NCBI GenBank assembly: GCA_964016885.1
Contig: OZ024742.1
Span: forward strand, 226,114,001-226,178,000
Direction: 5' to 3'
From: Eledone cirrhosa
Taxonomy: Eukaryota
DNA: 64,000 nt
The position numbers and the translations under genes are program-made. This document shows, piece by piece, positions 3,379 to 55,229 of the stretch. The notes under the pieces were generated by a model, which worked only from the letters and a program-made list of their open reading frames with translations, was not told the DNA's origin and did not search any database. The number at the start of each line of letters is the position of its first letter. The first letter of the stretch is position 1.

Positions 3379-3382
<4 letters not shown>

Positions 3383-4022
3383 TGCTAATTTACCAAAATT
3401 GTTTAGTTGCTAAAATAATTAAAACTTAGTTTGTTAAAATTACCTACTTTGATTTTTACTACAAACTTTGTAAATGCAATATACATATATATATATATTT
3501 ATATGCATATATATAAAAAAGAAGTTGAAAATGCAATTGGAGTATTTAAGAAGATTTATTTACAATAACTTTACTGGTTTCACAGTTTTATGATTTTCAA
3601 AAGTTAAGTGAGATGGTCTGACGGGATGGGAAATTTCTTTCCCGTTTATGCCAAAAAGTGACTTAGATTAAAGTATAATTTGATTGGTTGTAGATGATCA
3701 CGTGATTGGTTATAGAGTTTTATTGTAGCTTTTGTGCCAAAAATTGATGACCACGTGATTAGGAATAGAATTTTGTAGTTTTTGCACCCCAAAAGTTGGC
3801 GGTGTCATGGTTCAGTGAACATGGCTAGTGACAACCCCAAAAGGAATTCATGTCTATTTCGGTGTGTTAACTAGCGAAGTCTATAGAATGGTTTGTGACA
3901 ATATGTACATATAATATGCATATGCATTTACAAAGTTTGTAATAAAGATCAAAGCAAGTAATTTTAACAAACTAAGTTTTAATCATTTTAACGGTTAAAC
4001 AATTTTGGTAAATTAGCAATGT
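3379..4022. mobile_element. Fold-back element (100-bp inverted arms) with a Penelope-like interior
   Basis: 3379-3478 is an imperfect reverse complement of 3923-4022. Flanks are (TA)n/(TG)n. A hammerhead relic lies at 3566-3606(-). Confidence 0.7.
3566..3606 (-). ncRNA. Degenerate type I hammerhead ribozyme
   Basis: taactt-TTGAAAA-...-GAAA-CCAG-TA-aagtta. Stem I is 6 bp and the site is GUA, but the core has two substitutions relative to CUGAAGA. Confidence 0.45.
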
Positions 4023-4213
4023 ATGTGTGTGTGTGTATATAGTATGAGTGGTAACTGTAATGTGGTGGAAGGGATTTAGTAGTAGTGACTATACTGTGGT
4101 GATTATAGTTTTTAAATGAGAGAAAAATGACTGCATTATTATTACATAAAATAATCTCTAACGTCATGGGGTAGAGGGTAAGGGTTGTTTATTATTATTA
4201 TTATTATTATTAT

Positions 4214-4245
<32 letters not shown>

Positions 4246-4428
4246 AACACAGGAGGCAGGATCATTCACTGCAAAAATATCTTCAAAAGAAAAATAAAGA
4301 AACAAAAAATAACAAATTTTCTTCTTTTGAGACTCAGTGTGTGTGTGTGCGTGAGCACATAAAACAAAGATACTGAGTCACACATGTATATATATAAAAG
4401 TATATAGTATGTATATGCATGTATAAAG

Positions 4429-4459
<31 letters not shown>

Positions 4460-5852: not shown

Positions 5853-5904
5853 CTACAAACAAAGCAAAACAACAAACATTAACAGAAACAAATATGAAAG
5901 CATA

Positions 5905-7599: not shown

Positions 7600-8181
7600 C
7601 AACTTTAGCAGCACAAAACTGATGGTCCAAGTTATGAAAGTGACAGAAAAAGTTTTAGCACAACTAATTAGGGAAAGGGTAAAATTAGATAAGATGACCT
7701 CAACAAGTTCTTAGTTAAATGTGTAAGCCACTATCTCTGGTTTTTGTTGATCTAGAGAAGACCTTTGGCAGAGTACTACGATCTGTTGTCTGGTGGTCCT
7801 TAAACAAATTGGGAGTAGAAGAATTGCTTGTGACAGCAGCTGTCCTTTGGAACTTCTGTATGCTGACAACCTGGTTCTCATAGCTGAATCTGTGAAAGAA
7901 ATTCTGGCTTTGGAAACAGATTTAAGTATCAAAAGGACTTAGAGTAATCTTGGGTAAAACCAATTATTCATAAATAGGAAGAAAAGAGGATCTTGATCCC
8001 ATCAGGGAAGTGGCCTTGTTTAGTATGTAGAAAAGGAGTAGGTAGAAACTCTATACAGTGTATACAATGTAAATCTTGGGTTCATATGCAGTGTAGTGGA
8101 ATAGCAGGTAAACTAACAGAAAAGATAGACTTTGTATGTGGCAGATGCACAGGGATAGTTAGTAGTAGGAGCATCAGTGAA

Positions 8182-8214
<33 letters not shown>

Positions 8215-9212
8215 TAGATAGAAAACAGAGCCCAGATCCCCTCAGGGAAATGGCCTTGCTCAGTATGTAGGAAAGGTGTAGGTAGGAACTCCATCCTCTG
8301 CCCCAAATACAAACAATGAGTACACAAGAGATGTAGTGGGATCTCAGGAAGTTTAGCTAAGAATATAGGCTTTACATGTAGCAGCTGCACTGGGACAGCA
8401 AGCAGCAAACAGCCACAGTAAACAAGCACCACCAATCTCTGGGATGGCTCTGTAGAAACAGTAGACAGCTTTTGCTACCTAGGTGACCGAATTAGCAGTG
8501 AAGATGGGTGTTCGGAAAGTACAGTAGCCAGGGTAAGAATGGGATGGAAGAAGTTCAGGGAGCTACTGCCACTGCTAGCTGCAAAAGGCTTTTCCCTCAA
8601 AATGAAAGGCAGACTGTATGATGCATGCATATGAACAGCAATGTTATATCGTAGTGAGATCTGGGCGTTGTGTTTAGAAGACTTGCGTAAATTAGAAAGA
8701 AACGAAGCTTGCATGCTCCGATGGATGTGTAATAGTAATATACGCGAACAGCAAAGTATAAACAAATTGAGAGAGAGACTGAGCATAAGAGGAATCAAAT
8801 GCTGTGTGCAGTAGAGGAAGTTGCGTTGGTATGGACATGTGATGTGTATGAAGGACAGCTGCATAAAAAGGTGCAGAGCACTAGAAGTCAATGGAAGCTG
8901 TGGAATTGAGAGACCGAAGAAGACCTGGGATGAGGTGATAAAAGTCGACCTTACCCAATTGTACCTCTCAAAGGTGATGACACAGGACCGTGACCTCTGG
9001 TGTCACGCAGTAATACAGAAAACCCAACTTCATACAGATACTCACTATAAATGAGGTTGGTGTTAGGAAGGGCATCTAGCTCTAGATATCAAGCCACAAT
9101 CAGTTCCCGTATGAGCAGGACAAAGTCAGCCGACCGGGCACTGCCCACAACAGGTCAACCCGTCTAACCCATGATAGCATGGAAGAATGAACGTAAAACG
9201 GTGATGATGATA
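7600..9212 (+). mobile_element. Degenerate RTE LINE fragments (RT, two PHD-like segments, 3' end with SINE-type tail)
   Basis: LYADNLVLIAES, KWPC..C..C..WVH..C, RWYGHVM and RPKKTW motifs, with stops and frameshifts. Tail cccatgatagcatgga...gatgatga. Confidence 0.85.
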
Positions 9213-11382: not shown

Positions 11383-13030
11383 TTATAGATAATATACATA
11401 CATATCCACTATCATAGAAAATATACATATCTGTTGTTATAGATAATATACACACATATCCACTGTTATAGATAATATACATACATATCCACTGTTACAG
11501 ATAATATACATACATATCCACTGTTATAGATAATATACACACATATCCACTGTTACAGATAATATACACACGTATCCACTGTTATAGATAATATACACAC
11601 ATATCCACTGTTATAGATAATATACACACATATCCACTGTTATAGATAATATACACACATATCCACTGTTATAGATAATATACACACATATCCACTGTTA
11701 CAGATAATATACACACGTATCCACTGTTATAGATAATATACACACGTATCCACTGTTATAGATAATATACACACGTATCCACTGTTATAGATAATATACA
11801 TATATATCCACTGTTATAGATAATATACACACATATCCACTGTTATAGATAATATACACACATATCCACTGTTACAGATAATATACACACGTATCCACTG
11901 TTATAGATAATATACATACATATCCACTGTTATAGATAATATACATACATACCTGTTGTTATAGATAATATACACACGTATCCACTGTTATAGATAATAT
12001 ACATACATATCCACTGTTATAGATAATATACATACATATCCACTGTTATAGATAATATACATACATATCCACTGTTATAGATAATATACACACATATCCA
12101 CTGTTATAGATAATATACACACATATTCACTGTTATAGATAATATACATACATATCCACTGTTATAGATAATATACACACATATCCACTGTTACAGATAA
12201 TATACACACGTATCCACTGTTATAGATAATATACATACATATCCACTGTTACAGATAATATACATACATACCTGTTGTTATAGATAATATACACATATAT
12301 CCACTGATATAGATAATATACACACATATCCACTGTTATAGATAATATACACACATATCCACTGTTATAGATAATATACATACATATCCACTGTTATAGA
12401 TAATATACACACATATCCACTGTTATAGATAATATACACACGTATCCACTGTTATAGATAATATACACACGTATCCACTGTTATAGATAATATACATACA
12501 TATCCACTGTTATAGATAATATACACACATATCCACTGATATAGATAATATACACACATATCCACTGTTATAGATAATATACACACATATCTGTTGTTAT
12601 AGATAATATACATACATATCCACTGTTATAGATAATATACACACATATCCACTGTTATAGATAATATTTGTTTCTACTTTAGGCACAAGGCCAGCAATTA
12701 CCCAGTGCATTACTGGTACTTTATTTTATCGACCCCGTAAGGATGAAAGGCAAAGTCAACCTCGGCGGGATTTGAACTCAGATCGTAAAGGGACATAACT
12801 ATGCTGGAAAGCATGGCGTCCGACCCTCTACCGATACTGCCAATCCACATACACACATATCTGTTGTTATAGATAATATACATACATATCCACTGATATA
12901 GATAATATACATACATATCCACTGTTATAGATAATATACACACATATCCACTGATATAGATAATATACACACATATCCAGTTATAGATAATATACACACA
13001 TATATGTTGTTATATATAATATACATATAT
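11383..13030. repeat. 29-bp minisatellite (acatatccactgttatagataatatacac), ~50 units, interrupted by a SINE
   Basis: The ccactgtt motif recurs every 29 nt. A SINE is inserted at ~12666-12847. Confidence 0.95.
12666..12847 (-). mobile_element. Young tRNA-derived SINE with (ATT)n tail
   Basis: gattggcagtatcggtagag...gagttcaaatcccgccgagg...gcctttcatccttacggggtcgataaaataaagtaccag. Near-identical copies at 19515-19707, 21045-21222, 29985-30418 (two), 50078-50457 (two) and 63537-63728. Confidence 0.9.
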
Positions 13031-24699: not shown

Positions 24700-24732
<33 letters not shown>

Positions 24733-24856
24733 GGAACCAGTAAGACCCCAGGAGTCTTACTGGTTCCTATTACCCACTCTACTACCCTAAGTATTGAGTA
24801 CTTTGGTGCGTTATGGTCCACCTGGTTCCTTACCACATTTCCTTTGTTATATATAT

Positions 24857-24938: not shown

Positions 24939-25108
24939 AGTGAAATTCTGTTATAACAAAATTTATGGGGTATAAAAATAAATTTGTCGTAACGAAAAAT
25001 TCTTTATAACGAAATCGACCTAACATATTGAACGTGTGGGCGGGATTGAAAATAATTTCATTATACTGAAAAATTTGTTATAATGGTATTCGTTATAACA
25101 GAATTTTA

Positions 25109-25110: not shown

Positions 25111-25159
<49 letters not shown>

Positions 25160-31688: not shown

Positions 31689-31814
31689 ATTGTTTCTTCT
31701 TTTGGCACAAAGCCAGGAATTACCCCAGTGCATTACTGGTACTTTATATTATCAAAGTTAATATGTGTGTGTGTGTGTGTGTATTGAACAATGAAAATAA
31801 AACAAAAGTCAAAG

Positions 31815-32433
31815 ACAGCTATGGTACGACCACACTTGGAATTCGCATCATCAGTCTGGAACCCCTATCTTGCTCAGAACATTGACAGCCTGGAAACTGT
31901 TCAGAGACGTGCAACCAAGCGCATACCCTCCATCAGACACCTATCATACTCTGAACGCCTTGCTTCCCTGGGCATGGATTCATTGAAGCTCCGACGTCTG
32001 GCAACTGACTTGGTAAATACCCACAAAGTTATTAACCATCTTGCCAACAACAACCCTGAGTACCTTTTTGATCTCCCTGTGTCTAACACACATGGACATG
32101 CCTACAAAATCAGAAAACAGCACAGCTCCCATGACTTTCGTAGACATTTTTTCACGCTCAGAGTTGCTGAAGCATGGAACAAACTGCCTGCGTCAGTTGT
32201 TAGCTGCCGAGACACTGCATCCTTTAAGACACTCATGCTTCCCAAAATATGCCAAAACTACACCTGATGTACCCCTTCCATACACATGCACACATGTGTA
32301 TATCATGACTCATGCACTGTTCATTTTCCTGACGCTTGTACATTACCCTATGTTCTATACATACACTTTTTGATGAGTTGTAGTGCACCTGAACACTGTA
32401 CACAATATTTCAATATTTCATATTTCATTTCAT
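31815..32433 (+). mobile_element. 5'-truncated CR1-clade LINE (ORF2 C-terminus and 3' UTR)
   Basis: VRPHLEFASSVWNP...VQRRATK...LSYSERL...RRLATDL...FFTLRVAEAWNKLP, followed by a (catt/atttc)n tail. Confidence 0.9.
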
Positions 32434-32884
32434 TTAATTAGTTCATGGTTTTACAATCATTTCAGAGGATTGATTGATCATGGTAAATCGATATATTGAG
32501 TGATAGATAGTGGTTATGTAACCACCGATATCTAGTCTCGATATCCTAGATCCACCTCAATGTCTTCTTCAGAAACAATGAGCTATGATTTTTATTTGTG
32601 ATATAGACAAGGAGGCTGAAAAGGGACAGTCGCATATTCCCCACCAGGAAAATTAGATAAATAAAGACGGATACATAAATCAAAGCTACAAAAATAAAAG
32701 TAGAAAGCAAAAAGACATTTTTTTCTAAATACTCTACTCCTTTTTTCTAATAATCTTTCTACATCCATTTCTTTATCATCATTTTATGCATCCATCTTCA
32801 TTTATTTATTTTACCTGATTGGAGTTATATGACTGGCCCATTTCAGCCTCCTTATATATATATCACAAATAAAAATCATAGTTC

Positions 32885-33008
32885 ATTGTTTCTGAGGAGG
32901 ACGGTGAGACTAGGATATAGAGACTAGATACCGGTGGTGACATAACCTATTAGTCAATATATCGATTTACCATGATCAATCAAACCTCTGAAACAATCGT
33001 AACACAAT
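32885..33008 (+). ncRNA. Type I hammerhead with ~90-nt extended loop II
   Basis: attgttt-CTGAGGA-gga...tct-GAAA-caatcg-TA-acacaat. The core is intact, stem I is 6/7, and stem III is a decayed ACGATCGT palindrome. Confidence 0.55.
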
Positions 33009-33368
33009 TAACTAATTAAGAACCTATCTTCAACTTTTGTTTTATTTTCATTGTTCAGTACACACATATATATATAAATGACTCTGTAGCTCGAGTAGAA
33101 TCTTTGATGGAACCTTATGTGATGAGAGCCTACTTCAAAAACTATAGCTCTCACTACATGACCTCGTTGAAATCATCTCTTCAAGATTACATTGAGTTCT
33201 AACAATGATATCGGCCACACCATAAACAGGTGGATACCAGTATATATGTGTGTGTGTTTGTGTGTGTGTGCGTGTGCATGCGCAAAAAGTAAATGGAAAC
33301 AACAAAGTAAACAATATAGTACAATAATGAAATATATTAGTTTAACACTTGATATAGTAGAAAAAGAA

Positions 33369-34632: not shown

Positions 34633-34715
34633 TATATATATATATGTATATATATACTCTTTTACTCTTTTACCTGTTTCAGTCATCCGGCTGAGGCCAT
34701 GCTGGGGCACATATA

Positions 34716-35030
34716 TATTAATTCAAAATATTAACAAAATAGATATTCTTGTGATCAAGTATATTTTATTATACATATTTCCGAGGTACTGAGTTAACTT
34801 CAACAGTACGTCCTCATCAGATGATGTATGACATACCCTGACATAATAGATGGTTAAGATTCAGTCATGGTAGTACTGTTGAAGTTAACTCAGTACCTCT
34901 GAAATATGTATAATAAAATATACTTGATCACAAGAATATCTATTTTGTTAATATATATATGTGTGTGTGTGCGTGTGCGTGTGTGAATCGGTTAGAATAT
35001 CTATTTTGTTAATATTTTGAATTAATATTA
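34716..35030. mobile_element. Fold-back element with a hammerhead relic (34778-34820, minus)
   Basis: ~80-bp arms at 34728-34809 and 34873-34953. The minus strand reads CTGATGA-GGAcGTACTG...CAGTACcTCG-GAAA. Confidence 0.7.
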
Positions 35031-35120
35031 ATAACTCCCGAAAACCAAACTGTTGAGTGCTTCCAATCTATTGTAAAACTCATTCTTTGATTTATTCATT
35101 GAACCTTGTTTAACCTTTAA

Positions 35121-35160: not shown

Positions 35161-35559
35161 TCTTCTACAGTGCTGGTGCCACAACAAAAAGCACCCAGTT
35201 CACCCTCTAATGTGGTTGGTGTTAAGAACGGCATCCAGCCGTAGAAAACTAAGCCAAAAACTGTACGTACGTGCAAAATGTGGTCAGCTGACCTGTCTAA
35301 CCCATGCAAGCATGGGAAATAAACGTTAAATGGTAATATATATATATGTGTGTGTGTGTGTATGTGTATGTGTGTGTGTGTTTGTGTGTGAGTGAATCGG
35401 TTAGATATTAGATTAGGCTAAGAAAAAAATGAGAGGTCACGTGTCGATAATTTTGAATCGTCTGTGATTGTGAGGGGAGGAGACAAGCAATGAAACTGAG
35501 AGGGGGAGGAGAAATACCAATTGAGGTGGGGAAAAGAGATATAAAAAGGAGGAGGTAGG

Positions 35560-37604: not shown

Positions 37605-37644
<40 letters not shown>

Positions 37645-37668
37645 AAAAACTACATAGATTGTAATACC

Positions 37669-37714
<46 letters not shown>

Positions 37715-38932: not shown

Positions 38933-38985
<53 letters not shown>

Positions 38986-40800
38986 GAGAAGGTAAAGACT
39001 ACATAGATCGTAATACCAACTGAGAGAGAGAGAGAGAGGGAAGGTAAGGTAAAAACTACATAGATCATAATACCGACTGAGAGAGAGAGAGAGAGAGAAG
39101 GTAAAGACTACATAGATCGTAATACCAACTGAGAGAGAGAGAGAGAGGGAAGGTAAGGTAAAGACTACATAGATCGTAATACCAACTGAGAGAGAAAGAG
39201 AGGGATGGTAAGGTAAAAACTACATAGATTGTAATACCGACTGAGAGAGAGAGAGAGGGAAGGTAAGGTAAAGACTACATAGATTGTAATACCAACTGAG
39301 AGAGAGAGAGGGAAGGTAAGGTAAAGACTACATAGATTGTAATACCAACTGAGAGAGAGAGAGAGGGAAGGTAAGGTAAAGACTACATAGATTGTAATAC
39401 CAACTGAGAGAGAGAAAGAGGGAAGGTAAGGTAAAAACTACATAGATCGTAATACCAACTGAGAGAGAGAGAGAGAGGGAAGGTAAGGTAAAAACTACAT
39501 AGATCGTAATACCAACTGAGAGAGAGAAAGAGAGAAGGTAAGGTAAAAACTACATAGATCGTAATACCAACTGAGAGAGAAAGAGAGGGAAGGTATGGTA
39601 AAAACTACATAGATCGTAATACCAACTGAGAGAGAGAGAGAGGGGGAAGGTAAGGTAAACACTACATAGATCGTAATACCAACTGAGAGAGAGAAAGAGA
39701 GGGAAGGTAAGGTAAAAACTACATAGATCGTAATACCGACTGAGAGAGAAAGAGAGGGAAGGTAAGGTAAAAACTACATAGATCGTAATACCGACTGAGA
39801 GAGAAAGAGAGGGAAGGTAAGGTAAAAACTACATAGATCGTAATACCGACTGAGAGAGAAAGAGAGGGAAGGTAAGGTAAAAACTACATAGATCGTAATA
39901 CCAACTGAGAGAGAAAGAGAGGGAAGGTAAGGTAAAAACTACATAGATCGTAATACCGACTGAGAGAGAAAGAGAGGGAAGGTAAGGTAAAAACTACATA
40001 GATCGTAATACCAACTGAGAGAGAGAAAGAGAGGGAAGGTAAGGTAAAAACTACATAGATCGTAATACCGACTGAGAGAGAAAGAGAGGGAAGGTAAGGT
40101 AAAAACTACATAGATCGTAATACCGACTGAGAGAGAGAGAGAGAGAGAGGGAAGGTAAGGTAAAAACTACATAGATCGTAATACCAACTGAGAGAGAGAG
40201 AGAGAGAGAGGGAAGGTAAGGTAAAAACTACATAGATCGTAATACCAACTGAGAGAGAGAAAGAGAGGGAAGGTAAGGTAAAGACTACATAGATCGTAAT
40301 ACCGACTGAGAGAGAAAGAGAGGGAAGGTAAGGTAAAAACTACATAGATCGTAATACCGACTGAGAGAGAAAGAGAGGGAAGGTAAGGTAAAAACTACAT
40401 AGATCGTAATACCAACTGAGAGAGAAAGAGAGGGAAGGTAAGGTAAAAACTACATAGATCGTAATACCGACTGAGAGAGAAAGAGAGGGAAGGTAAGGTA
40501 AAAACTACATAGATTGTAATACCAACTGAGAGAGAGAAAGAGAGAAGGTAAGGTAAAAACTACATAGATTGTAATACCAACTGAGAGAGAGAAAGAGGGA
40601 AGGTAAGGTAAAAACTACATAGATTGTAATACCAACTGAGAGAGAGAAAGAGGGAAGGTAAGGTAAAAACTACATAGATCGTAATACCGACTGAGAGAGA
40701 AAGAGAGAAGGTAAGGTAAAGACTACATAGATCGTAATACCAACTGAGAGAGGGAGAGGTAAGGCAATAAATAGCTCTATAGATCTGTACCAGTGACTGA
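35560..40800. repeat. Purine-rich satellite: ~61-bp units (35880-37140), then variable (GA)n-containing units; ~90 units in total
   Basis: The constant core ggtaaggtaaa(a/g)actacatagatcgtaatacc(a/g)actgaga repeats throughout, with degenerate units at both edges. Confidence 0.95.
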
Positions 40801-43800
40801 GAGAGTGGGAGTAAGAGATAGTTTGATTGTAATAGCGACTGGGAGTGAGAGAGTGAGTAGGAGAGAGAAAAACGACAGAGAGGTAAAAGCTATATGGATT
40901 AAATAGAAACTGTGAAAGAAGGACTCACACACATATATATATATATAGATAGATATATATAGATATATATATCCTACTCTCACATCTCTTTCCCTATATA
41001 TATATAGACAGAGAGAAGGGGGAGAGATAAAACAGAGACTATATAGTGTCGATTCATAGAGTGGGGGAAAAGGATAGATAGATGTATAGATAAAGAGAGT
41101 AGGAGGTGAGATATAGACTATAGACTGTATATAATAGCGACTGTTCTCTGTACTGTAAATAGGAAAGCTGGCAGAGCTGGTATAGTGAAACAGTTGATGG
41201 CACCAGTCACATATAGAACTGAGACACAAATAGACAAGATAGACACTTTAAAAATAAGTTCTAACACACACAGTATATAATCCAAACGTACGTGTATGTG
41301 TGTATTTGTTTATATATTATATATACACAGACATACACGTTCATGGAACATGATTATAACCACACACGCGCACAAGCAGATATACACTGTGTATTTGGCT
41401 GACTATTTTTAAATGTGTGTGTACTGTCATGTATGTATTTAAGCAGGGATGCACGAATGGATGAATGTATATGTATGTCGGCATGTTCGATATTTATGCA
41501 TGCGTGTATGTATAAATTTACGTTAAGTGTGACTGGCTATACGCAGGGCCTCTACGCTTTCAGGAATTTCGAATTTCCTCTGTTAGTTCAATCTTCCACA
41601 CCACTACAGCTGACAGGCCGGGCCCTTAGGCTTACAGGTATTTCGGGGCTCCTCGGGCACTTTCATCCCACTACAGCAAAAATAAACTTGACAGGCATTT
41701 AGTGCCTGTGATCCCCGTAGGCTTCAGTCAATTCAATTTTATGAATAATGCAGTCATTGATACATGTATGCATGTATGAATGTGTATGCACGTGTATATG
41801 TATAATTTTATAGTCGTATGGATGAATGCACGTATATGTATGCCGGCATGTAATGTATTTAATTTTAAGTATAGATGGATTTGTGTATGTAGGTGTGTAT
41901 ATGTATATATGTTGGCAGGTTTCAATATATGTAGTACGGATGTATTATGTATGTTTCTATGTGTGTATATAATATTATGTATTATGTGGATATATAACTG
42001 AGTATGCATGTATACATGTGTGGATATAATATGATGTGAAGAAGTACATGAGGCAAACATTTACCATAAAGCACACTACCAGCTTAGTTTTTCCAATAAT
42101 CAAAAGAGTATTAACAAGAACACTGAAAGGCTGCAAACTATATATGTATAAATAGCACATTCTATGTACTTAGATGTAGAATGTGGGTCTCTGGGCCTAT
42201 GTAAATGTGAGTTTAAAAGTACGTTGAACTTTTAAATAAATCATGTAAGCACACACATACATAGGCGGATTAAGATTGTATGGAGCCTCTGGTTAAAATT
42301 TTCATTATTTATGACAACAAAAAATTAATTTGGGCCCTTTAAATATTGTGGTGACTCCTGACTACAGCTTAGTCCCCCCCCCCCCACAAGTCTGTAAGTC
42401 TGTGTGGGTATGTATGTGTGCATGTATATATGTATTAGTATCTAAAAATATGTAAGCGCCACAGTGAAGTTTAAACCGTTTCGACCATAGGGTTTACATG
42501 TTTAAATATCAACACTACTTTCTTTAAAGAATGAAGTACTAGGTTGAATAATGGTCTTACTAATCTCAATTAGTAACATATTATTCATCTATACACACAC
42601 AAGTGAGGGTACACGGAAAGTGCTATCAACACAATGTGTAAGTTGAGAATATATATATTATATGTTAAAAGTTTGACTTTATGCGTTACCAAACGGTTTC
42701 ATATACGTATTTATATCTATGAAACTGGTAACGTATAAGTCAACGATCCTGTCCTTAATGCACCGAAATCGTGGTGCTCACCCATCAGACAGCCGTTGAT
42801 TCAGGGATGTGTCCGTCTGTCCATTTTGCTCTGCCCATGAAAATCTATTTGGTTTTTTGAAAAGCCGCCACTATGCAGGTGAATAATAGTCGAATAAGTT
42901 GGGTAAAATGCCCCTGAAGACAGAAAAAAGGGGGACAAAGACGCACGTATACATATCTAGTAGTATTTCGTTAAAATACGGAAAAGAATCAAAATTAAAG
43001 TAAGGTACTCAATACATCGGTAGAGTGGGTAATTAATTTCATAAAGGGGTGGCTTTTACAGGATTAGTTCTGTTACATTCGGTGAAGAAAATCGTCACCT
43101 ACAGAAACATAATTAGTACTGGAAGGGCTACAATTCAATAAAATAATATATATGATTGATTGACAGATAGATAGATATAGAGATTGATAGAGTGATAGAC
43201 ATAGATAGAGAGAGAGAGACGAGGTAGATAGATAGACGGGGGCAGATAGATAGGATGTTGCGAATCAAGATTAGTAAGATCATTATTCAACTTAGTATTT
43301 TATACTTAAAGGAAAGTAGAAGGTAGGTATTAGTATAGAAAACATAGGCCCTACAGTCAAGTTTAAACCGAAACGCTTTAAGCTTGAACGTAGGGCCTAC
43401 ATATCTATTAATGTTTGTGTACGTATGTCCATACACGCAGATATTTTGAGGGTTGAAGGTAGTATCACCGCGCTCTAAATAACCCAAAGTATGAAAGAAG
43501 CCCTCCATTCAGGTACAATTAATTCTATTATGGCTTATCATCAACACACACATAAATGTATGAATTTATTTCAAGAATAAATCTATCATTCCTTTTCTCC
43601 AGAATATATAAATTATTATTATAGTCATGAAGCCTAACCAGTGACTTAATGACCAGGAGTTTCGTGTTAAAAGTACCCTTAAGCACGAAACTCCTGGTCC
43701 TTGAGTTACAAGAATGTCTTCATACATGCATACTATTAATAGTGATTGTTTACTTTGAAGTTTCGCCGATACTACTGGCTTCTCAAAACAATATTATATT

Positions 43801-45197: not shown

Positions 45198-45960
45198 GTT
45201 CCACTTGTTTCAAAAAAAGTTAAATGGGCACAGACGAAATTTTCTTCCGCCGATCTATTGTGGACCTAAAAGTAGTTCGGTAAAAAATCTCTCAACATTT
45301 ACAAATAAATATTCCCAGAATTTCTTTTAGTTGTCAAAAATAAGTTTTCATATAAATAACAAAGCCTCTTCTGTGAAATATTTTCGTTTATAATTCGATT
45401 TTCACCATGGAATGTATGAATTATGAGTAATGTATTAGTGCGCTGGTCGGAGTTGTATCCATTCGCATCACGTTTGACTATGTGGAATCTATGTGCGTGT
45501 GAGTGATGAGGCCGTCGTGCGCCTTGAGCAGACGGCAATCTGTAGTCGGCCGCGAAATGCGCACCATATACTACTACTAATCACAGACAAGGTGCCCACT
45601 GGGTTTTGCTTTATGTTTCACACATATATTCTGCAATTCTTTAGGAATATAAACTACTTCACCACATATATTTTTATTGTATACGCCACACATTGAAAAT
45701 TTAATAATAAAAGATAATTTTTATACAATATTTATGAACAATTGGTGATGATGAAATGCAGCTGTGACCAGCGAAACCGGAGTTCCAGTTTGACGCTGTA
45801 CCGAGCGGGAAACGCCTCGATGAATAGACGAGACCATGCTTTCGGTTTCTATGATGCGAAGATATATATTTGTATATAGAAAGAAAGGCTTTCCGTAGAG
45901 GAACCGAAAGCGGCAACAGTTACATAAAGTACTCAATACATTAAGTAGAACTAGAACAGT
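45198..45960. promoter_or_regulatory. Putative promoter/5' region of the KIAA1143-like gene
   Basis: TE-free, locally CpG-rich stretch directly upstream of the ATG. It contains an E2F-like GCGGGAAA (~45825). A CRE-like TGACGTTC lies at ~45030 in intron 1. Confidence 0.45.
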
Positions 45961-46059: not shown

Positions 46060-46844
46060 ATAATTGTATATGAATATGTATGTATGTACATAAATACATA
46101 CATACATATAGACACACACACACATACATACACACACATATATATACATCCATACATACATACATACATCCATACATACATACACACATACACATACATA
46201 CATACATATACACGATACGTATATGCATAAAGATAGAGTCTTGTATAATGAGCCTGTATATACACAGGCGAAACTCCAGAGTAACAAGACTGACATAGCC
46301 TTAATAAAAGAATATTCATTTTCACTTTAGTACTGAGTAGTCCGCGACCGTCAATACTAAGCTTATATGAATGTATACTATTATTAATAATAGCTAATAT
46401 TTCTGTTAATGTCTTTTATAACTCTTACATATATCCCGTTTAGTTTAGTAAACCGCCTTTTCGGCTTCACTATTTCTAAAATACAGCCTAGCAACAATAA
46501 TGTTTCGTTATTTATTTACACGGAGTAAATTGAAAGTGAAAATACGAACGTGGTACAGTACTTAGTAGCAGTCGTGTTGAAAAAGCGGAATGTATTTTTA
46601 AAAAAAAAACAACTAATAAACAATTAAAATAAATATTTTAAAAAGTTCGTTACATTCCAAAACATATCTACACCATATTTTAAAAGGTGCCTTTAAACCG
46701 AGTTTTACTGTTAAGGGAATTGCTATGTATGAAGAATTAACAGAATTATTCCAAAATATTTATACACACACACTCACACACATATATTATATGTATGTAT
46801 ACATATATGTATGTATACATATATATATATGTATACATATATGT

Positions 46845-47054: not shown

Positions 47055-47150
47055 TTATATATATATGTGTGTGTGTGAATACATATATATATGTGTCTGT
47101 ATGTATATATATATATATATATAAATGTATATATATATATATATATATAT
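46060..47150. repeat. Compound (CATA)n and (TA)n microsatellites
   Basis: Directly visible; the source of the YIYI-type ORFs. Confidence 0.9.
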
Positions 47151-47487
47151 ATTAATAAGAGGAATTCCAACTTTGTCTGATTTACTTGTTTTATTTACAA
47201 TCCTTGAAAATTTATAATGGTATTATAATGAAATAGTATGATAGAATATTAAATTCTAAGTGTTAATTGAACAAGTACTTTCATGCTTTCGCAATCTTCA
47301 GGTTCATAATATGTGGTGACAGTCAAGTTTGCAATTTTCAACTGAAAATTGCAAACTTGACTGTTCAATTAACACTTAGAATTTAATATTCTATCATACT
47401 ATTTCATTATAACACCATTATAAATTTTAAAGGATTGTAAATAAAACGAGTAAATCAGACAAAGTTGGAATTCCTCTTATTAATATA
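47147..47487. mobile_element. Young fold-back element (~125-bp arms) enclosing a hammerhead and an inner 22-bp hairpin
   Basis: 47147-47273 is a near-perfect reverse complement of 47362-47487. The inner hairpin is at 47319-47364. Confidence 0.85.
47268..47306 (-). ncRNA. Minimal type I hammerhead ribozyme
   Basis: tgaac-CTGAAGA-ttgc gaaa gcat-GAAA-gtac-TT-gttca. Stem I is 5 bp, stem II is GNRA-capped, stem III is palindromic (aagtactt), and the core is intact. Confidence 0.7.
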
Positions 47488-47533: not shown

Positions 47534-49085
47534 GCTGAACCGGGACAAGTCGATCGGTCTGCAACTCGGCACGTGGAGGGGCAGATCGATGCCCTCCGAT
47601 GGCGTCGTCGGGCGCTGGACGGAGGGCCCGGTGAAATTGCTCGGGGTCTGGTTCGGACCAGACCTCCAGGTGGAGAAGAACTGGGGTGAGGTGACGAGCA
47701 GGGTGTTTGCACTGACCCAGAAGTGGGCCGAGTGCAAACTGTCCCTGAAAGGTCGGGCGGAGGTGGCGAACACTTATATAGCATCCGTCATCTACTACCG
47801 CCTGACCGTGGTGCCTTGCCCAAGAGAAACGCTCGCCAAAATGGAGCGCGCACTCTTCCAATTCCTTTGGAAGAAGCGGGCTCCTATGGTGAGGAGATCC
47901 ATCTGCTGTCAACACCCTTCGAAAGGAGGGCTGGGGATGCCGTGGCTGATGATACATAAACACGCATTAAGGCTACGGCACCTTCAGGTATTCCTCTCCG
48001 GTCAACCGGTGTGGGCCCCGTTTGTGAGGCGAGCCTTTTCCAGACTCGTCTCACTCACCGAGCTGCAATCCTGGGTCAAGCAAAGACCGAGAAAACTGGG
48101 CGCCTGGCACACCGAGTGTGCCCAGGCGCTCACGGCTCACTGGCAGGCAGACCGGCTGTCAGTGGAGAATCCACCTCGTCATTCTATAGAGGGCTGGTGG
48201 TTAGCAGGTGCGACGACGCCCTCGGAGAAGCCCTAGGCATGGAGGAAGACGAACTGGCCAACCTGTTCAGTAGGACATTCAGCCCGGGACCCATGGATAA
48301 CTTCCAGAGGTCCCTGGCCTGGCAATGCTACAGAAGGGCTCTGCCCGTTTGAGAAAGGCTCTACAGACACGGGCGCCCGGGTAGGGACCCATCGAAAAAG
48401 GTCTGTCCCAGATGCGTGTGCGACGAGGAAACCGTTGCACACGCATTGGTACACTGCTCGGGCATTGCCGATCTGTGGGGCTATGTCGAACAACTGCTGT
48501 CAAGGGTGGGACCAATCCGGTTGACCACCGAGTCTATTGTAACGATCAAGCCGCCTCCCCTCTTCAAAAACGAAGGAGAGGCGGTGTTTCTGTGCGTAAT
48601 AGCCATGGCGAAAGAGGTTGTATGGTGGACGCGTCTGAAAGGACTGAGGTCAGACACCTTTCTCTCTGGCCAACAACTGGTCCGTTTCTTCCGATATCAT
48701 TTCGGAAGAAGGATCAGGATGGAGAGAGAGGTGCTGCACCCCAGCCGTTTCTATGAAAGATGGGTGAAAGTGGCAAGAATGGCCCGTGTGAATGGGCCTT
48801 CACTCTACATCAGACTATAGGTGAGGAAGATGAAAGACCAAGGGAGCACCCCTTCTCTGTGCTCCTGAGGAGAAGGGTTGCACACTTTTTTCGGGGGTGT
48901 GTGTGACCCCCCAAGGCGCCTCCTCTCTATTGAGGACTTTGTTATAAATTTTATTTTTTGTTATATTTTATTTTATTTTTATATATTGTTATTGCCTCCT
49001 CCTTATTGAGGACGCCTTGTTTTGTAAACTCCCCCCTTTGTACTTGTCCCACTTTTGATGCCCTGGTGGCAAATAAAAGAAACAT
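47534..49085 (+). mobile_element. 5'-truncated Tx1/L1-clade LINE (RT C-terminus, CCHC finger, 3' UTR)
   Basis: VKLLGVWF, LSLKGRA, FLWK, KGGLGMP and CPRC..EETVAHALVHC motifs. One frameshift and one stop. Ends aataaaagaaaca. Confidence 0.92.
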
Positions 49086-49235: not shown

Positions 49236-49403
49236 ATAATAATAAATTTGAAGACTAAAATCAAAAGAGGGCTCGATAAGGATAAATATATATCAAATAT
49301 ATAAGAACTGTAGAGCAAATATTTATTCAAATAACAGATTAAAGTTTAAGCAAAGAATCGCTGCTTTCACTCTTAAGGGTGAAAGCAGCGATTCTTTGCT
49401 TAA

Positions 49404-49865
49404 ATAAGGGCAAAGGAGCTCTTAAGAGTCAATGGCCATCCAAAATCACCGGGAGAGATGACTCTTTAGCCTTTGTCAAGGCAGAATTCTAGGAGAAGGA
49501 AAACTCTGATATAACACCTGCAACTCTGATGGTATCCAATGATGTTGACTTGTTCTTCTTTTTGGTAAATATCATCTTGGTTAAGAGAGTGGGACTGGCT
49601 TTGTGCAGTGCCTTTGCTCACTATAAAAGCTTCACGGGACAGGCATTGCTTTATATCTGGAGATCTCTCTGCACTTGTCGTCACATGGTACCATGGGCCC
49701 AGCACTATGTGTCAATAATTGTCACAAGTGTAGTGTTTGTACCAGAGTTTTCAAGTTGCTGGCTGGACTAAAAAGTCACACTCGTTCAGCGCATAGGTAG
49801 GAAGGAGTTCTCCTACATGGATATAAAGTAGTGGCCGTACTCGAAAACGAGTTGGCAGCCACCAT
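49404..49865 (+). mobile_element. Composite old retroelement fragment ending in an RTE-type 3' end
   Basis: CSVCTRVFKLLAGLKSH zinc-finger-like remnant, then gtactcgaaaacgagt and an (atgt)n tail. Confidence 0.5.
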
Positions 49866-49878
49866 GTATGTATGTATG

Positions 49879-49921
<43 letters not shown>

Positions 49922-50027
49922 ATGTATGTATGTATGTATGTATGTATGTATGTATGTGTATATATATATATATATATTTATTAAAATAACAGATTAAAGT
50001 TTAAGCAAAGAATCGCTGCTTTCACCC

Positions 50028-50067
<40 letters not shown>

Positions 50068-50832
50068 TATATTATTATCGGTGGATTGGCAGTATCGGTA
50101 GAGGGTTGGACGCCATGCTTTGTAGCACAGTTACGTTCCTTTACGAACTGAGTTCAAATCACGTCGAGGTTAACTTTGCCTTTCATCCTTATGAGGTCGA
50201 TAAAATAAAGTACCAGTAATACACTGGGATAATTGCTGGCCTTGTGCCAAAAAGTAGAAACAATTATTATAGGGCGGTGGATTGGCAGTATCGGTAGAGA
50301 GTTGGACACCATGCCTTGAAGCATAGAGTTACGTCCCTTTATGATCTGAGTTCAAATCCCGCCGAGGTTAACTTTGCCTTTACCGGGTCGATAAAATAAA
50401 GTACCAGTAATGTACTGGGTAATTGCTGGCCTTGTGCCAAAAATAGAAACAATTATTATATAAAACACATGGCGAACTGGTATATTCCTTCCTGGGAACA
50501 AAGCAACAATAACGTCAGTTTACTTTGAGAAACTCTGAGTATCTGGGAAGGTATATGCCAATTTTCCGTGTGTTTTATATAATACATTTACTTCTATGTT
50601 TACATATTGAAGGCTCTTTCTTTAGTGATTGCAATCTTACACTCAGCCAACTAATATATATATACATCTAAACATCTATATATGTATCATCATCATCATC
50701 ATCGTTTAACGTCCATATTCCACGCTTGCATGGGTTTGGACGGGTGTTTTCCCACTTGAGGCATATATGTGTGAATATCATCATCATCATCATCATCATC
50801 GTTTAACGTCGATCTTCCACGCTTGCATGGGT

Positions 50833-51058: not shown

Positions 51059-51194
51059 AGTGTGTGAGTGTGTGTGTGTATTATAGACGAATAATATCAA
51101 CTTAGTTAAATTCTAAATAAGTTAAATTATTATTGTTACAAAATGATATTTTTTAAAGTATCAGTTTGTATATGTGTGTGTGACAATATATATC

Positions 51195-53235
51195 TGATGG
51201 CTGCTTCTTGATTTCAATAATTGCAATTACTTGATTCTTTTCTCACACATGGGTGGCACGAACATGACTCTTTAGTTCTGCCAAAGACTTACATTCTTTT
51301 CTGTGTATGCTACAGTGATGAATGTTACTCCCAATTTGGTGAGCTTTCAAATGACATTGGAGTCTGCCAGCTGTTTTCCACACTTCCAACAGGAATATGT
51401 TGTACATGGCTTCTCTGATGATTTCTAAGACCAGCAATACTGAGGCAAATCCAGTTACACTCATTGCATACAAAGTCATTTTGAGCATCTAAATATCCAG
51501 GTAAAGTAATATCATGCAGACCCTTACACAAAACCCTCTTTCATTTTTCAAATTCCTGTTTTCCATTAAACACTGTTTTACCCCAAGATGATCAGTCTAA
51601 GACAATGTCTTCCCAGTTATCTTCTCTGAATTTTGATCTTATCAAAGCTCTTTTGATGCAGTCTTTATACCTGAGTTTTGGTTTATGCCTTGGTCGTTTG
51701 CTTTTGACTAACTCCCTGTCTAGTAACTGCTTAGGAATACGATGATCTTATAACATGACCACTCCAGTGCAATCTATATAGAATTACGAGAGATTCAATA
51801 CTTTCAAAATGACTTCATTCCAACACTTCAACATCACTCATATGTGACAATTGCCAATGGATCCAAAGTATTCAGTAATGACATTGTTGATGAAAATGTT
51901 CAAGAATTTTTATATTTCAGTAGTATGTGACCCAAGTTTTACATGCATACAACACCCAGAAAAACCTGGGACGATTTGATAAATTCTGACCTTACACACT
52001 TATACCTCTCTAAGACAATGTCACTGGACCGAGAGCTTTGGCGCTACGCAGTAATACAGAAGACCCGCCTTGCCTATGTACAAAGCGAAACCTACAGTCA
52101 CTAGGCACCTCTTAACCAAATATATACCCCATCCCACTATCCCTACTCCACCCCACCCCCACTCCCACCAACACCACCCTTTCTCTGTAAAGTTATCTTG
52201 GTAGGTCAACATCCAGTTCAAAATAAATGAGGTTGTGTAGGTGTCACGACAAAAAAACACAGAGTCCACGCTGTAATGTGGCCGTGCAGGTAACACGATA
52301 AAAACCTCCCAGTCCACACTGTAAATGTGGTTTGTGTTAGGAAGGGCATTGAGCTGTAGAAAACCTGCCAGACAGTCCTATACGGGCGAGACATGGTCAC
52401 CCAACCAATCTTGCCTCAAGTGGGACAATTCCCGTCTAAACCCATGCTAGCGTGGGAAGATAGACGTTAAACGATGATGATGATGACAACAATGAAGACA
52501 ATACACATGTTCTGTATACCTTTAACTTTGCATCAATGAAAATCCCACATCTACACTAGAGACCCCCATTTAATTTACCAAATGAATCATTAGCTTTCTT
52601 TCGTCGTAAAAGGATTTCATCATCAAGGGTGTGTGTCATGTTAACTGTGTTATAAATTTATCCACAACCTTTAATGTTTTGCCATACTCATAAATTCTAG
52701 GCTCAGGGAAGTGCTTGCCTGGAGCAGGTTGATAATGACAACTGTCTTGGCCAGGCTGATTTTCAAACCAATGTGCTGCATGTCTCTGAAAAAGAATCCA
52801 TCAGGTGTTACATGTCACTCTCAGAGTGAGCAACAAGATTGCAATCATCTGCATACAAACATTCATGTATTAAAGAAGTGAACACTTTTGTTTTGGGCAG
52901 CAAACTGTCTGATGTTAAACACTTTATCTGTTGTACGATACTTGATATGTGCAGTCCTAAAATGCCATAAGGAAAACCATAGAGTAATACAATGCAAACA
53001 GAATAGGTGCTGGTATATTCCTTTGTTTTACCCTATTTTCAATGAAAATGGGATGTGACACTTGTCCACACAAGCTGACACACCTCATAAAAACCTCTCA
53101 GAACATATGACAGTCCTATTCACTATATCAATAATTTTACATAAAACTTTTCCCACAACTGACAGGAGGGCTATCCCACAATAATTACCACAATCATCCT
53201 TTGCACCTTTTCCTTTATAAAGTTCTATCATCCAT
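51195..53235 (-). mobile_element. Old RTE/BovB-like LINE remnants, interrupted by the 51957-52486 element
   Basis: NYCGIALLSVVGKVL, LYADDC, PKLRYKDC and terminal CNECNWIC...GLRNHQRSH motifs. Confidence 0.75.
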
Positions 53236-53580
53236 GCATGTTTCCGTATAAATATATATATATTCATTTTATTAAGGGTAAATAGTGAGTCTTGTTACTC
53301 TGGAGTTTCAGCCTAACAAAACTCACTATTTAGCCTTAATAAAATGAATATTAAAACTCTATTTCGGTGTTGAGTACTCTTTTCTCTCAGCCATCAACCA
53401 TATATAGATATCTTATCTATCTATGGTAGATAAGATATCCATACTTATCTATCTATGATAGAGTTGGAACTCCATGTAGTATGGAAGTGAAAATTCCAAT
53501 GAGATCTGGTGATAAAAGTTTTTGTTTTTGTAGTAAGATATCGTTAGACTTTGTTGAGCATTCAAGCATGCTACAGTCAT

Positions 53581-53960
53581 ATATGTAGGTTGAATAATGA
53601 AAGCAAAATGCAAAAGTTTAGTGCTTAATTAGTTCATTGTTTTTCAATAATTTCATAAGATTGATTGATCATGATAAATCGATATAGTGACTAATGAGTA
53701 GTAGTTATGCAACTCCTTATTATTAGTCTTGGTTCTATAGATCCATCTTACTAACTTCATCAGAAATAATCTTGTTTCTGGCAAAGACGGTGAGTTGGAA
53801 CTATAATATTGAGGCTAATATTATAGAGTTGCATAACTACTATCGATTACTTACTATATTGATTTATCATGATCGATCAACCTTCTGAAACGATCATAAA
53901 ATATTGAACTAATTAAGCACTAAACTTTGCATTTTGTTTTCATTATTCAACCTATACATA
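53581..53960. mobile_element. Fold-back element of the same family as 31779-33063
   Basis: ~185-bp imperfect arms centred at ~53770, containing CTGATGA (minus) and GAAACGATCATA (plus). Confidence 0.8.
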
Positions 53961-54891
53961 TATATATATAGGTTACATATAAGTAGATTGTGCATGTATA
54001 GTATATCATCATCATCATCACTATTTTACATCTATATTCCATGCTTGCATGGGTTATACAGGTTGTCATTGTCATGTTATGAAGCTAAACAGGCCAGTTT
54101 ACTGTATCTTGTTTATATGTTCCATTCTGGTTTCTACAGTTGGATGCCCTTCCTAACACCAACTACTTCACAGCTTATACTGGGTACATTTTATTATGAC
54201 GCTGGCACTACCACTTGATAGAGTGGGGTGGCTGCTTTTTATCATGGCACCAGCACTACAACTTTACACACAAACGCATATGTACTTGTAATCCATATAT
54301 AGAATACTTGAGTAGTTTCAAATGGGTCCTATATTTCACATCTCACCTGGGCCTATTATCAGCTTTAGGGGTCTATATTTCACATCTGGTCTAGGCCTAT
54401 TACCAACTTTTTACAAAAAGGAAAGGGGGGTGGTCATCAGATTGGATCAAGTATGTTTCCATTGTTGACATATACCTTTCTTATCACAATCACTAACCAC
54501 TTTACAGAGTGGACTGGGTGCATTCTATAATGCCAACAGCATTTGTATGCCAGGATTAAAATGTCCCCAATTTCACTGAATCACTGTATGCAGAACTACA
54601 GCTCTTCTAGATGGGTTGCCTTTACTGCAGCTTCAGGAGTCTACATCTGCCCTAACTAACCCATGCAAATATGGAAAACATGGATGTAAAAATAATGATG
54701 ATGATGATGTATGTATATGTATGAAAGTATGTGGCCTAGTAGTTAGAATATTGGACTCATGATCATTTCACATTGTATTTCATAATAGAAGTGAATCCCT
54801 ATTATCATAAGATGCAACCTTGTAAGAGGCCAGTTAAACGAGTACACAGGTGTAAGTTGAAAATTTCATTTCATTTTCATATATATATATA

Positions 54892-55229
54892 CTAATTTCA
54901 AAAACACCAAAGATTGAAGGCATTGTCAACCTGATATATGTTTCTGCTAGCCTAAACTCACCCTAGAATCATAGAATTACAATTTCAAAACTTCAAAATT
55001 TTTAATTTGAAAATGTTATAGTTTTTTAACTTGACCTTCAGCAGTTGGTTCAAGGTCAGTGTCATCAGAGTTTATTTATGCATCAACATCAAGTTATAAA
55101 ACTATAAAATTAAAAATTTTAAATTTTGAAGTTTTGGAATTGTAATTCTATGATCCTAGGGTAGGTTTAGGCCGGCAGATACATATTTCAGTTTGACAAT
55201 CCCTTGAATCTTTGCTGTTTTTGAAATTA
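54892..55229. mobile_element. Fold-back element with an extended-loop hammerhead relic
   Basis: ~140-bp arms. The two arms together give aaact-CTGATGA...GAAA-catat(a/t)-TC-agttt. Confidence 0.7.

What the first reader, a model, noticed from the sequence alone, without database searches (positions are those of the whole stretch)
3379..55229. Recurrent microsatellite-bordered fold-back elements built from hammerhead-bearing Penelope-like ends
Seen: several sequence-unrelated families share one architecture, (TA)n/(TG)n - arm - short spacer - inverted arm, with a whole or half hammerhead in or between the arms and no ORF. Examples: 3379-4022, 31779-33063, 34716-35030, 47147-47487, 53581-53960, 54892-55229. 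Smaller hairpins: 24730-24770, 42672-42743, 43650-43700, 49345-49404, 50455-50583, 53260-53351. Established: PLE pseudo-LTRs contain hammerheads and are often inverted next to truncated copies. Inference: this is a high-density class of non-coding, retrozyme-like hairpin insertions that favour (TA)n, possibly made by template switching or self-priming during integration.
Basis: partly seen in the sequence, partly recalled or inferred. Interest (0 to 1): 0.75.

Follow-up and report, generated by a model that had tools for sequence, protein, structure and literature searches.

The report
Truncated Penelope retroelement ends in octopus
Most of these hairpin-shaped repeats in an octopus genome look like ordinary stubs of Penelope retrotransposons, two back-to-back copies of the element's ribozyme-bearing end, though several share a small one-sided tail motif that may mark what the element's enzyme recognises.

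Summary
All 12 named fold-backs are real, in an octopod genome. Hammerheads are less general than claimed. Rfam finds none. My descriptor finds complete type I cores in 3 of 12 (31779, 34716, 47147). 53581 is a decayed copy of the 31779 family. Four carry only a 3' half, 54892 only a 5' half, and 3379, 24730 and 49345 nothing convincing. Cores point outward from the centre. A microsatellite touches 11 of 24 ends but both ends in only 3 of 12. Five elements instead carry a one-sided tail (RCTC...YYGAGY), the published Penelope insertion signature. Best reading: 5'-truncated head-to-head Penelope-like insertions that lost the ORF. This layout is in print, including paired hammerheads on opposite strands 100-700 bp apart (PMC4209133). 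They are not retrozymes, which are head-to-tail. No Penelope ORF was found, so the parent clade is unproven. 3379 may be a DNA-transposon MITE. Two leads may be new: a tail motif shared by unrelated families, and two arms that start at the predicted ribozyme cut.

The parts
31782..33060 (.). Fold-back, family A copy 1. Arms 31782-31818 plus 32434-32707 and 32755-33060; left arm split by a later insertion
   Evidence: 220/262 identical in the inner part
32439..32585 (-). Type I hammerhead, intact core, 13-bp stem I, long stem II, predicted cut after 32452
   Evidence: score 24.4, no core mismatch
32879..33014 (+). Type I hammerhead on the opposite arm, predicted cut after 33001
   Evidence: score 17.3; alternative non-hammerhead fold preferred by MFE
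33061..33097 (+). (CA)(TA)n run followed by the one-sided tail stem ACTC...GAGT; related tail on the left end of 53581
31788..32267 (+). 159-codon open frame, likely LINE 3' fragment inserted into the left arm; not part of the fold-back
   Evidence: LINE likeness recalled, no Pfam hit
53581..53960 (.). Fold-back, family A copy 2; arms meet a few nt upstream of the hammerhead core; both cores decayed
   Evidence: descriptor score below 11
34715..35028 (.). Fold-back. Arms 34728-34809 and 34873-34954, then a microsatellite-rich piece resembling nearby DNA at 35383-35405, then a repeat of the arm end 34994-35028
   Evidence: 81/82 identical
34768..34822 (-). Hammerhead core with 10-bp stem II and palindromic stem III; stem I not formed
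   Evidence: score 21.3
35029..35060 (+). One-sided tail (ACTC...GAGT)
47148..47487 (.). Fold-back. Ungapped arms end inside at 47273 and 47362; 44-nt palindrome 47320-47363 in the spacer; (TA)n on the left; no tail motif
47268..47306 (-). Minimal type I hammerhead, predicted cut after 47273; the other arm starts at the matching base
   Evidence: (score 19.0)
54893..55229 (.). Fold-back, arms 54890-55034 and 55089-55232; only CTGATGA plus a hairpin in the spacer (minus strand); (TA)n on the left
   Evidence: no complete core
55230..55265 (+). One-sided tail (GCTC...GAGC)
53260..53351 (.). Small fold-back; left arm holds a 3' half hammerhead, right arm starts 2 nt before the predicted cut; same family as solo 46237
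53352..53378 (+). One-sided tail, similar extension in solo copy 46316-46345
46237..46345 (+). Solo copy of the 53260 family with a three-stem hammerhead (two core changes) and tail-like extension
   Evidence: 21.1; z -3.7
24730..24803 (.). 41-nt hairpin after (TA)n, followed on the right by the tail; no hammerhead part
42673..42743 (.). Small fold-back with GAAAC...GTA 3' half on both arms; no microsatellite contact, no tail match
43641..43709 (.). Small fold-back with CGAAAC...GTC 3' half on both arms; no microsatellite contact, no tail match
50455..50583 (.). Small fold-back with a 3' half on the right arm only; weak tail-like extension
43745..43792 (-). Solo minimal hammerhead with the U3-A8 core variant
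   Evidence: 22.5; variant described in PMC4209133
3379..4022 (.). 100-nt inverted arms, over 400-nt spacer, symmetric (TG)/(TA) ends; no hammerhead, no tail. Unassigned, possibly a DNA-transposon MITE
49345..49404 (.). 60-nt hairpin at the edge of a LINE remnant, with a 52-nt direct copy at 49979-50030; no convincing hammerhead. Unassigned

Best explanation
Nine or ten of the 12 elements are severely 5'-truncated insertions of several Penelope-like element (PLE) families. Mechanism, mostly inferred from published PLE biology: an autonomous PLE elsewhere in the genome supplies RT and GIY-YIG nuclease. The nuclease cuts AT-rich DNA, often (TA)n. RT starts inside the element RNA at one of two nearby sites, and the stretch between them is the tail. 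Two short cDNAs are laid down in opposite orientation, one from each cut strand or the second by fold-back priming, and are joined at their truncated 5' ends. This gives a head-to-head repeat whose ribozyme strands point outward, with the tail at one end and the microsatellite at the other. The ORF is missing because synthesis stopped after 20-300 nt. Each fold-back is a dead-end product made at its own site, not a unit that spreads. Shown here: the geometry, the cores, the one-sided tail, and different centres in two copies of one family. Inferred: the enzyme, the priming step and any ribozyme activity.
For: Complete cores in 3 of 12 elements and a decayed family member in a fourth; 5 hits >=18 vs 0.28 per shuffle. 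Outward 15 vs inward 3 half motifs. Palindromic stem III and the U3-A8 variant match published PLE hammerheads. Tail at 5 of 24 ends and never on both ends; in 4 of those 5 the opposite end touches pure (TA)n; background 0.3% per end. The tail was absent from 8 of 8 ends of 4 DNA-type candidates. Family A copies share outer ends but have different centres (spacers 47 and 2 nt), and arms group within element in 12 of 17 informative columns. Solo copies of the same ends exist (46237; the 28296/33333 pair). PLEs are abundant in Octopus vulgaris (PMC13282606 passages). The layout is described in PMC4209133, PMC3846280, PMC8557442 and PMC11167929.
Against: No PLE ORF in the window: a six-frame scan with recalled motifs found none, and a suspected decayed nuclease at 33750-34125 got no Pfam or protein hit. 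Rfam found no hammerhead. Most candidates fold no better than shuffles (8 of 10 with z above -2 and only 46237 clearly significant), and the family A consensus fold is not the hammerhead fold. The tail pattern was derived from the ends it was tested on. No target-site duplication was identified. 3379 and 49345 do not fit.
Confidence: 0.8

Rival explanations
1. The elements are DNA-transposon MITEs or foldback elements with long terminal inverted repeats that insert at TA. Hammerhead-like motifs are incidental.
For: Mariner-type elements with inverted ends also sit in (TA)n here (24941-25111, 34468-34632, 58469-59762). 3379 has symmetric ends, a long spacer, no core and no tail. Within-element grouping of arms is also expected for MITE subfamilies.
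Against: One-sided tails, intact ribozyme cores inside the arms, different centres in two family A copies, and solo non-inverted copies.
Confidence: 0.07
2. One reading: a distinct class of retrozyme-like, non-coding hairpin elements that spread as units.
For: No ORF, hammerheads present, high local density (3004 nt, 4.7% of the window). Retrozymes are thought to derive from PLE ends (bioRxiv 10.64898/2026.07.22.740005 abstract).
Against: Retrozymes need two cores in tandem on one strand; here cores diverge on opposite strands, so no monomer can be cut out. No tandem hammerhead arrays were seen among the 76 TRF rows and the descriptor hits. The one family seen twice has different centres.
Confidence: 0.05
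3. The inversions arose at the DNA level after or apart from retrotransposition, by snap-back or template switching during repair or replication at fragile (TA)n tracts, acting on solo PLE ends or other DNA.
For: Hairpins without ribozyme parts (24730, 49345), a palindrome in the 47147 spacer, and a piece of nearby DNA inside 34716. 49345 adjoins a LINE remnant with a 52-nt direct duplication.
Against: Does not explain the consistent outward polarity or the tail on exactly one end. The much more numerous SINE-like repeats do not appear as tight fold-backs in the masked self-BLAST (not formally counted).
Confidence: 0.07
4. Assembly or sequencing artefact (chimeric fold-back reads).
For: Three elements have nearly perfect arms: 34716 (81/82), 49345 (28/29), 24730 (19/20).
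Against: Other arms differ by about 5-17%, with 65 of 110 differences being transitions; one arm holds a later 600-nt insertion; family A occurs twice.
Confidence: 0.01

Closest known systems
5'-truncated inverted pLTR insertions of endonuclease-bearing PLEs (Penelope/Poseidon, Neptune, Nematis, Hydra)
   Same: Head-to-head inverted copies, palindromes at the junction, a 30-40 bp tail at one end only, AT-rich or microsatellite targets (PMC8557442 and PMC3846280 passages; PMC11167929 parts 1-2 of 4).
   Different: Here both copies are cut down to 20-300 nt with no ORF; the parent element and clade were not found; no target-site duplication was identified.
Minimal type I hammerheads of metazoan PLEs (Cervera and de la Pena 2014, PMC4209133)
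   Same: CUGANGA/GAAA core, palindromic stem III, U3-A8 variant, many divergent families per genome, and dual motifs about 100-700 bp apart on opposite strands (parts 1-2 of 4 read).
   Different: Family A has a 13-bp stem I and about 100 nt in stem II, longer than the 4-5 and 7-8 bp described; most cores here are decayed.
Non-LTR retrozymes (PMC7229834; bioRxiv 10.64898/2026.07.22.740005)
   Same: Non-coding, type I hammerhead, probable PLE origin.
   Different: Retrozymes are head-to-tail repeats of about 150-450 bp that yield circular RNA; these are single inverted pairs with diverging cores.
Naiad PLEs (PMC8557442)
   Same: Present in Octopus, prefer (TA)n, form inverted structures with a tail.
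   Different: Naiads lack canonical hammerheads, so they could account only for the core-less elements such as 24730 or 3379.
Tc1/mariner-derived MITEs
   Same: Inverted ends, TA context, no ORF; examples in this window.
   Different: Symmetric ends and no tail or ribozyme; fits only 3379.

Membership tests
Penelope-like elements (truncated copies) | RT plus GIY-YIG ORF linked to the terminal repeat | tested here: inconclusive
   None in the window. Expected to be missing from truncated copies; the rest of the genome was not available.
Penelope-like elements (truncated copies) | Type I minimal hammerhead in the terminal repeat, sense strand towards the element's 3' end | tested here: met
   Complete cores in 3 of 12, decayed homologue in 1, 3' half in 4, all outward. 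Not met for 3379, 24730, 49345; 5' half only in 54892.
Penelope-like elements (truncated copies) | Inverted 5'-truncated copy joined head-to-head | tested here: met
   variable centre in family A
Penelope-like elements (truncated copies) | 30-40 bp tail at one end only | tested here: met
   5 of 12 by pattern, plus a related tail on 53581. Pattern defined after inspection; tail end points not mapped.
Penelope-like elements (truncated copies) | AT-rich or microsatellite target bias | tested here: met
   11 of 24 ends vs 10% background; selection bias in the list, and shared with mariner-type elements.
Penelope-like elements (truncated copies) | Target-site duplication or empty site | not testable with these tools
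   No second individual or related eukaryote assembly available; duplications are not readable inside (TA)n.
Hammerhead ribozyme | Match to a curated covariance model | tested here: not met
   No Rfam hammerhead hit at gathering score or E<=10.
Hammerhead ribozyme | Self-cleavage | not testable with these tools
   Needs an in vitro assay.
Non-LTR retrozymes | Head-to-tail repeats with at least two consecutive complete cores on one strand | tested here: not met
   Cores are single or on opposite strands; no such array among the TRF rows.
Non-LTR retrozymes | Expression as small circular RNA | not testable with these tools
   No RNA data.
MITE / DNA transposon | Symmetric terminal inverted repeats with fixed ends and TA duplication | tested here: inconclusive
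   Not met for the 5 tail-bearing elements; compatible for 3379.
MITE / DNA transposon | Many copies of uniform size and interior | tested here: inconclusive
   Only family A occurs twice as a fold-back, with different interiors; 3379 has no other copy in the window.

The most novel reading that the evidence does not exclude
The stubs record two steps of PLE transposition that are still open. First, the tail stem RCTC-N(8-25)-YYGAGY, shared by families with no other similarity, is a conserved RNA signal that places the RT start site, so one enzyme lineage can mobilise many unrelated ends. Second, where one arm begins at the predicted cut (47147 at the cut base, 53260 two nt before it, 50455 about four nt after it; 3 of 8 elements with an assignable site, the other 5 elsewhere), the template was ribozyme-cleaved RNA. 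That would be genomic evidence that PLE hammerheads cut in vivo, which PMC11167929 did not see in RNA-seq reads. Caveats: small numbers, no formal test of the offsets, weak covariation in the tail stem, and a gappy core-like stretch just upstream of the 47147 right arm.
Probability: 0.22. Interest if true: 0.65.

Novelty: new member of a known kind. Interest (0 to 1): 0.3.

Why it matters
As it stands this is useful for annotation. About 5% of this window is short fold-back DNA that a structure-based tool could file as MITEs but that mostly looks like Penelope stubs; outward cores and a one-sided tail tell them apart. If the two leads hold genome-wide, the very many truncated copies in octopus become a natural mapping experiment for RT start and stop sites and for in vivo ribozyme cleavage, which are open points in the PLE cycle. 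Five of the 12 elements lie in the 35-kb first intron of a host gene, so they would form double-stranded pre-mRNA; relevance to cephalopod RNA editing is speculation from general knowledge.

Tried and rejected
Rfam at gathering score and at E<=10: no hammerhead family; the 143 weak hits were mostly microsatellite-driven miRNA models. First descriptor too strict, 3 hits, and its shuffle loop crashed; the second lacked the extra base after position 9 and the U3-A8 variant. Candidate 45837-45912 (score 17.8-19.8, two core changes) is treated as a plain fold-back, not a ribozyme. The 28311/33385 pair was recognised by eye and by BLAST (80% over 85 nt); neither descriptor ranked it. RNAalifold on the four family A arms gave a competing pairing rather than the hammerhead. 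A suspected decayed GIY-YIG region at 33750-34125 gave no relevant Pfam hit and no protein hit at E<=10 among 299 candidates; it stays unverified. Six-frame scan with recalled PLE motifs: 5 matches, none PLE-like. One search used wrong columns and is void; one search is the corrected count, with the 31779 row misaligned. In one search the 53581 left-arm stem I slice was one base off (printed 5/13; the printed sequence contains the full 13-mer). The tail profile's non-training hits at score >=19 were 4 loci: one in a SINE-like repeat (1811), one beside an unlisted fold-back (45951), and two not beside a significant fold-back (43026, 50959). 27775-28140 did not show terminal inverted repeats. 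No scan of the bacterial and archaeal genome collection, phages or plasmids was run, as the host is an animal. Viral and metagenome contigs were closed, so nothing was checked there. No structure prediction was run, as there is no protein to model.
Full report
VERDICT. The fold-backs are real. Most are best read as very short head-to-head insertions of Penelope-like element (PLE) ends, a layout already described. They are not retrozymes. Two side observations may be new but rest on few cases.

CONTEXT. The window is octopod DNA. An exon at 5850-5704 (minus strand) is 94% identical to an Octopus bimaculoides protein and 88% to an Argonauta protein. Two more exons lie at 9661-9554 and 45197-45087, so five named elements (24730, 31779, 34716, 42672, 43650) are in a 35-kb intron. 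The region is rich in microsatellites (8% of bases, 391 runs) and holds LINE remnants with RT or zinc-finger Pfam hits and a mariner transposase remnant.

THE ARMS. All 12 named elements have inverted arms scoring above the best of 200 shuffles. Identity between arms runs from about 83% to 99%. In the six large elements 65 of 110 differences are transitions, which fits ageing rather than chimeric reads. Three near-perfect cases (34716, 49345, 24730) still need long reads. Of 66 pairs, only 31779 and 53581 are clearly related. I call them family A. Their outer ends agree but their centres differ: the arms of 31779 run about 130-150 nt upstream of the core, while those of 53581 meet a few bases upstream of it. 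Arms group within element in 12 of 17 informative columns. The left arm of 31779 is split by a 600-nt insertion with a 159-codon frame, so 'no ORF' is wrong for those coordinates, though the frame is a passenger.

HAMMERHEADS. Rfam found none at gathering score or at E<=10. I wrote a type I descriptor and revised it twice, the last time after reading PMC4209133 (parts 1-2 of 4). The final version gives 5 hits scoring 18 or more against 0.28 per shuffle, maximum 2 in 100 shuffles: 32572- (31779), 43786- (solo, U3-A8 variant), 34820- (34716), 46245+ (solo) and 47301- (47147). The second arm of 31779 scores 17.3, in the range where shuffles give about one hit. Family A has a 13-bp stem I and a palindromic stem III, but folding programs prefer a competing pairing. 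53581 has decayed cores. 42672, 43650, 50455 and 53260 carry only the 3' half; for 53260 this is backed by homology to the solo at 46237. 54892 has only the 5' core and a hairpin. 3379, 24730 and 49345 have nothing convincing. Half motifs face outward 15 times and inward 3 times, 4.4 expected each. Cleavage was not tested.

THE ENDS. A microsatellite touches 11 of 24 ends against 10% background, but both ends in only 3 of 12 and neither end in 4 of 12. The list was picked partly for this trait, and mariner-type elements here also sit in (TA)n, so the trait is not diagnostic. Five elements (24730, 31779, 34716, 53260, 54892) continue on one side only into a short extension matching RCTC-N-YYGAGY, starting 4-20 nt past the arm; background is 0.3% per end. 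In four of the five the other end touches pure (TA)n. 53581 has a related extension on its left end only. None of 8 ends of 4 DNA-type candidates has it. The pattern was derived from these ends, so the enrichment is inflated. As a partial outside check, a profile built from the five found 4 further loci at score 19 or more against 0.4 positions per shuffle: 45951 lies beside an unlisted fold-back (top 2% of background), 43026 and 50959 do not pass that test, and 1811 looks like a SINE. The 4-bp tail stem is 88% paired over 42 cells, with 16 and 10 of 500 shuffles as high for pairing and covariation; this is weak support. In family A the (CA)(TA)n run lies between arm and tail, so part of the 'bordering' microsatellite may belong to the element.

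NO PARENT IN VIEW. ORF listing, Pfam and a scan with recalled motifs found no PLE RT or GIY-YIG. A stretch at 33750-34125 upstream of a solo core looks by eye like a decayed nuclease but got no hit. PLE membership therefore rests on non-coding features.

MECHANISM. Published work shows that a PLE protein nicks both strands of AT-rich DNA and starts reverse transcription at two nearby internal sites in a stem-loop, the tail being the sequence between them, and that ribozyme cleavage is not needed in vitro (PMC11167929, parts 1-2 of 4). Applied here by inference: two short cDNAs, one from each start site, are made in opposite directions and joined at their truncated 5' ends, or the second is made by fold-back priming as proposed for rotifer PLEs (PMC3846280 passages). 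This gives outward cores, a tail on one side, a TA-rich junction on the other, and a centre that varies by copy. Spacer palindromes (47147) and a piece of nearby DNA inside 34716 fit template jumps at the joint. I put this at 0.8 for the set. Rivals are MITEs (likely only for 3379), DNA-level snap-back (possible for 49345, which adjoins a LINE remnant with a 52-nt duplication), a spreading retrozyme-like unit, and artefact.

KNOWN OR NEW. Inverted truncated copies, one-sided 30-40 bp tails, microsatellite bias and PLEs in Octopus are in PMC8557442 (passages). Dual minimal hammerheads about 100-700 bp apart on opposite strands, attributed to truncated PLEs, are in PMC4209133. PLEs are a major repeat class in octopus (PMC13282606 and PMC8967140 passages). 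Retrozymes are tandem by definition (PMC7229834 passages; bioRxiv 10.64898/2026.07.22.740005, part 1 of 5 and passages). So these are new members of a known kind. I did not see the cross-family tail motif or arms starting at the cut site in the passages read or in the listings of searches. The library lacks most subscription papers and I saw no supplements, so absence from print is not established.

THE BOLDER READING. In 47147 the second arm begins at the base matching the predicted cut, in 53260 two bases before it, and in 50455 about four bases after it; in the other 5 of 8 elements with an assignable site it begins elsewhere. If this is a genome-wide peak, cleaved RNA served as template, which would show that PLE hammerheads act in vivo. 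A gappy core-like stretch upstream of the 47147 arm weakens that case, and I ran no formal test. Together with the tail-signal idea I give this 0.22.

SCORES. Observation partly confirmed; interpretation partly supported; novelty: new member of a known kind; interest 0.3.

Noticed in passing
window 45197-45087, 9661-9554, 5850-5575 (minus strand): Three-exon host gene for a small acidic protein, 94-96% identical in two exons to an O. bimaculoides protein labelled 'histone H3.v1' (the label probably reflects the acidic tract; my inference). It has a PLDLT motif, recalled as a CtBP-binding motif.
   Followed up: partly
window 28296-28380 (+) and 33333-33417 (-): Two solo copies (80% identical) of one hammerhead-like family, each with one core change and ending in a microsatellite with no tail match.
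   Followed up: partly
window 33750-34125 (-): Decayed frame upstream of the 33385 solo core that by eye resembles a GIY-YIG nuclease end; no database support.
   Followed up: partly
   Followed up: partly
window 42429-42600 and 43244-43399: Two rearranged copies of one repeat; 43345-43399 is a hairpin centred on a CGAAAC word. A tail and a core-less hammerhead remnant lie between them at 43000-43110 (-).
   Followed up: partly
window 24941-25111, 34468-34632, 58469-59762: Elements with short terminal inverted repeats in (TA)n; the last has a mariner transposase remnant (Pfam PF01359).
   Followed up: partly
window 49324-50030: Internally deleted LINE remnant with a C2H2 finger (RTE likeness recalled), flanked by a 52-nt direct duplication whose left copy is folded back into the 49345 hairpin; possibly a long target duplication with a snap-back 5' junction.
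   Followed up: partly
window 35799-40758 and 11383-13025: Large tandem arrays: a purine-rich unit of about 55 nt with variable (GA)n (85 copies) and a 29-nt unit (44 copies plus 6).
   Followed up: no
window 55685-58170, 7600-9000, 61860-62700: RTE-like LINE copies with a PHD finger inside or next to the RT domain; many relatives in public protein sets.
   Followed up: partly
window 47535-48820 (+) and 60452-61183 (-): Two related 3' fragments of an L1/Tx1-like LINE (zf-RVT hits; clade name recalled); the first begins about 50 nt after fold-back 47147.
   Followed up: no
window 30420-30464: 45-nt hairpin directly after a SINE-like repeat, sharing a 16-22 nt word with the junctions of two upstream copies (29969, 30214).
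   Followed up: no
window 27575-27703: (TA)n-bordered stub with a GAAACGATTGTA half motif on the minus strand and a small AT-rich hairpin at 27660-27703.
   Followed up: no
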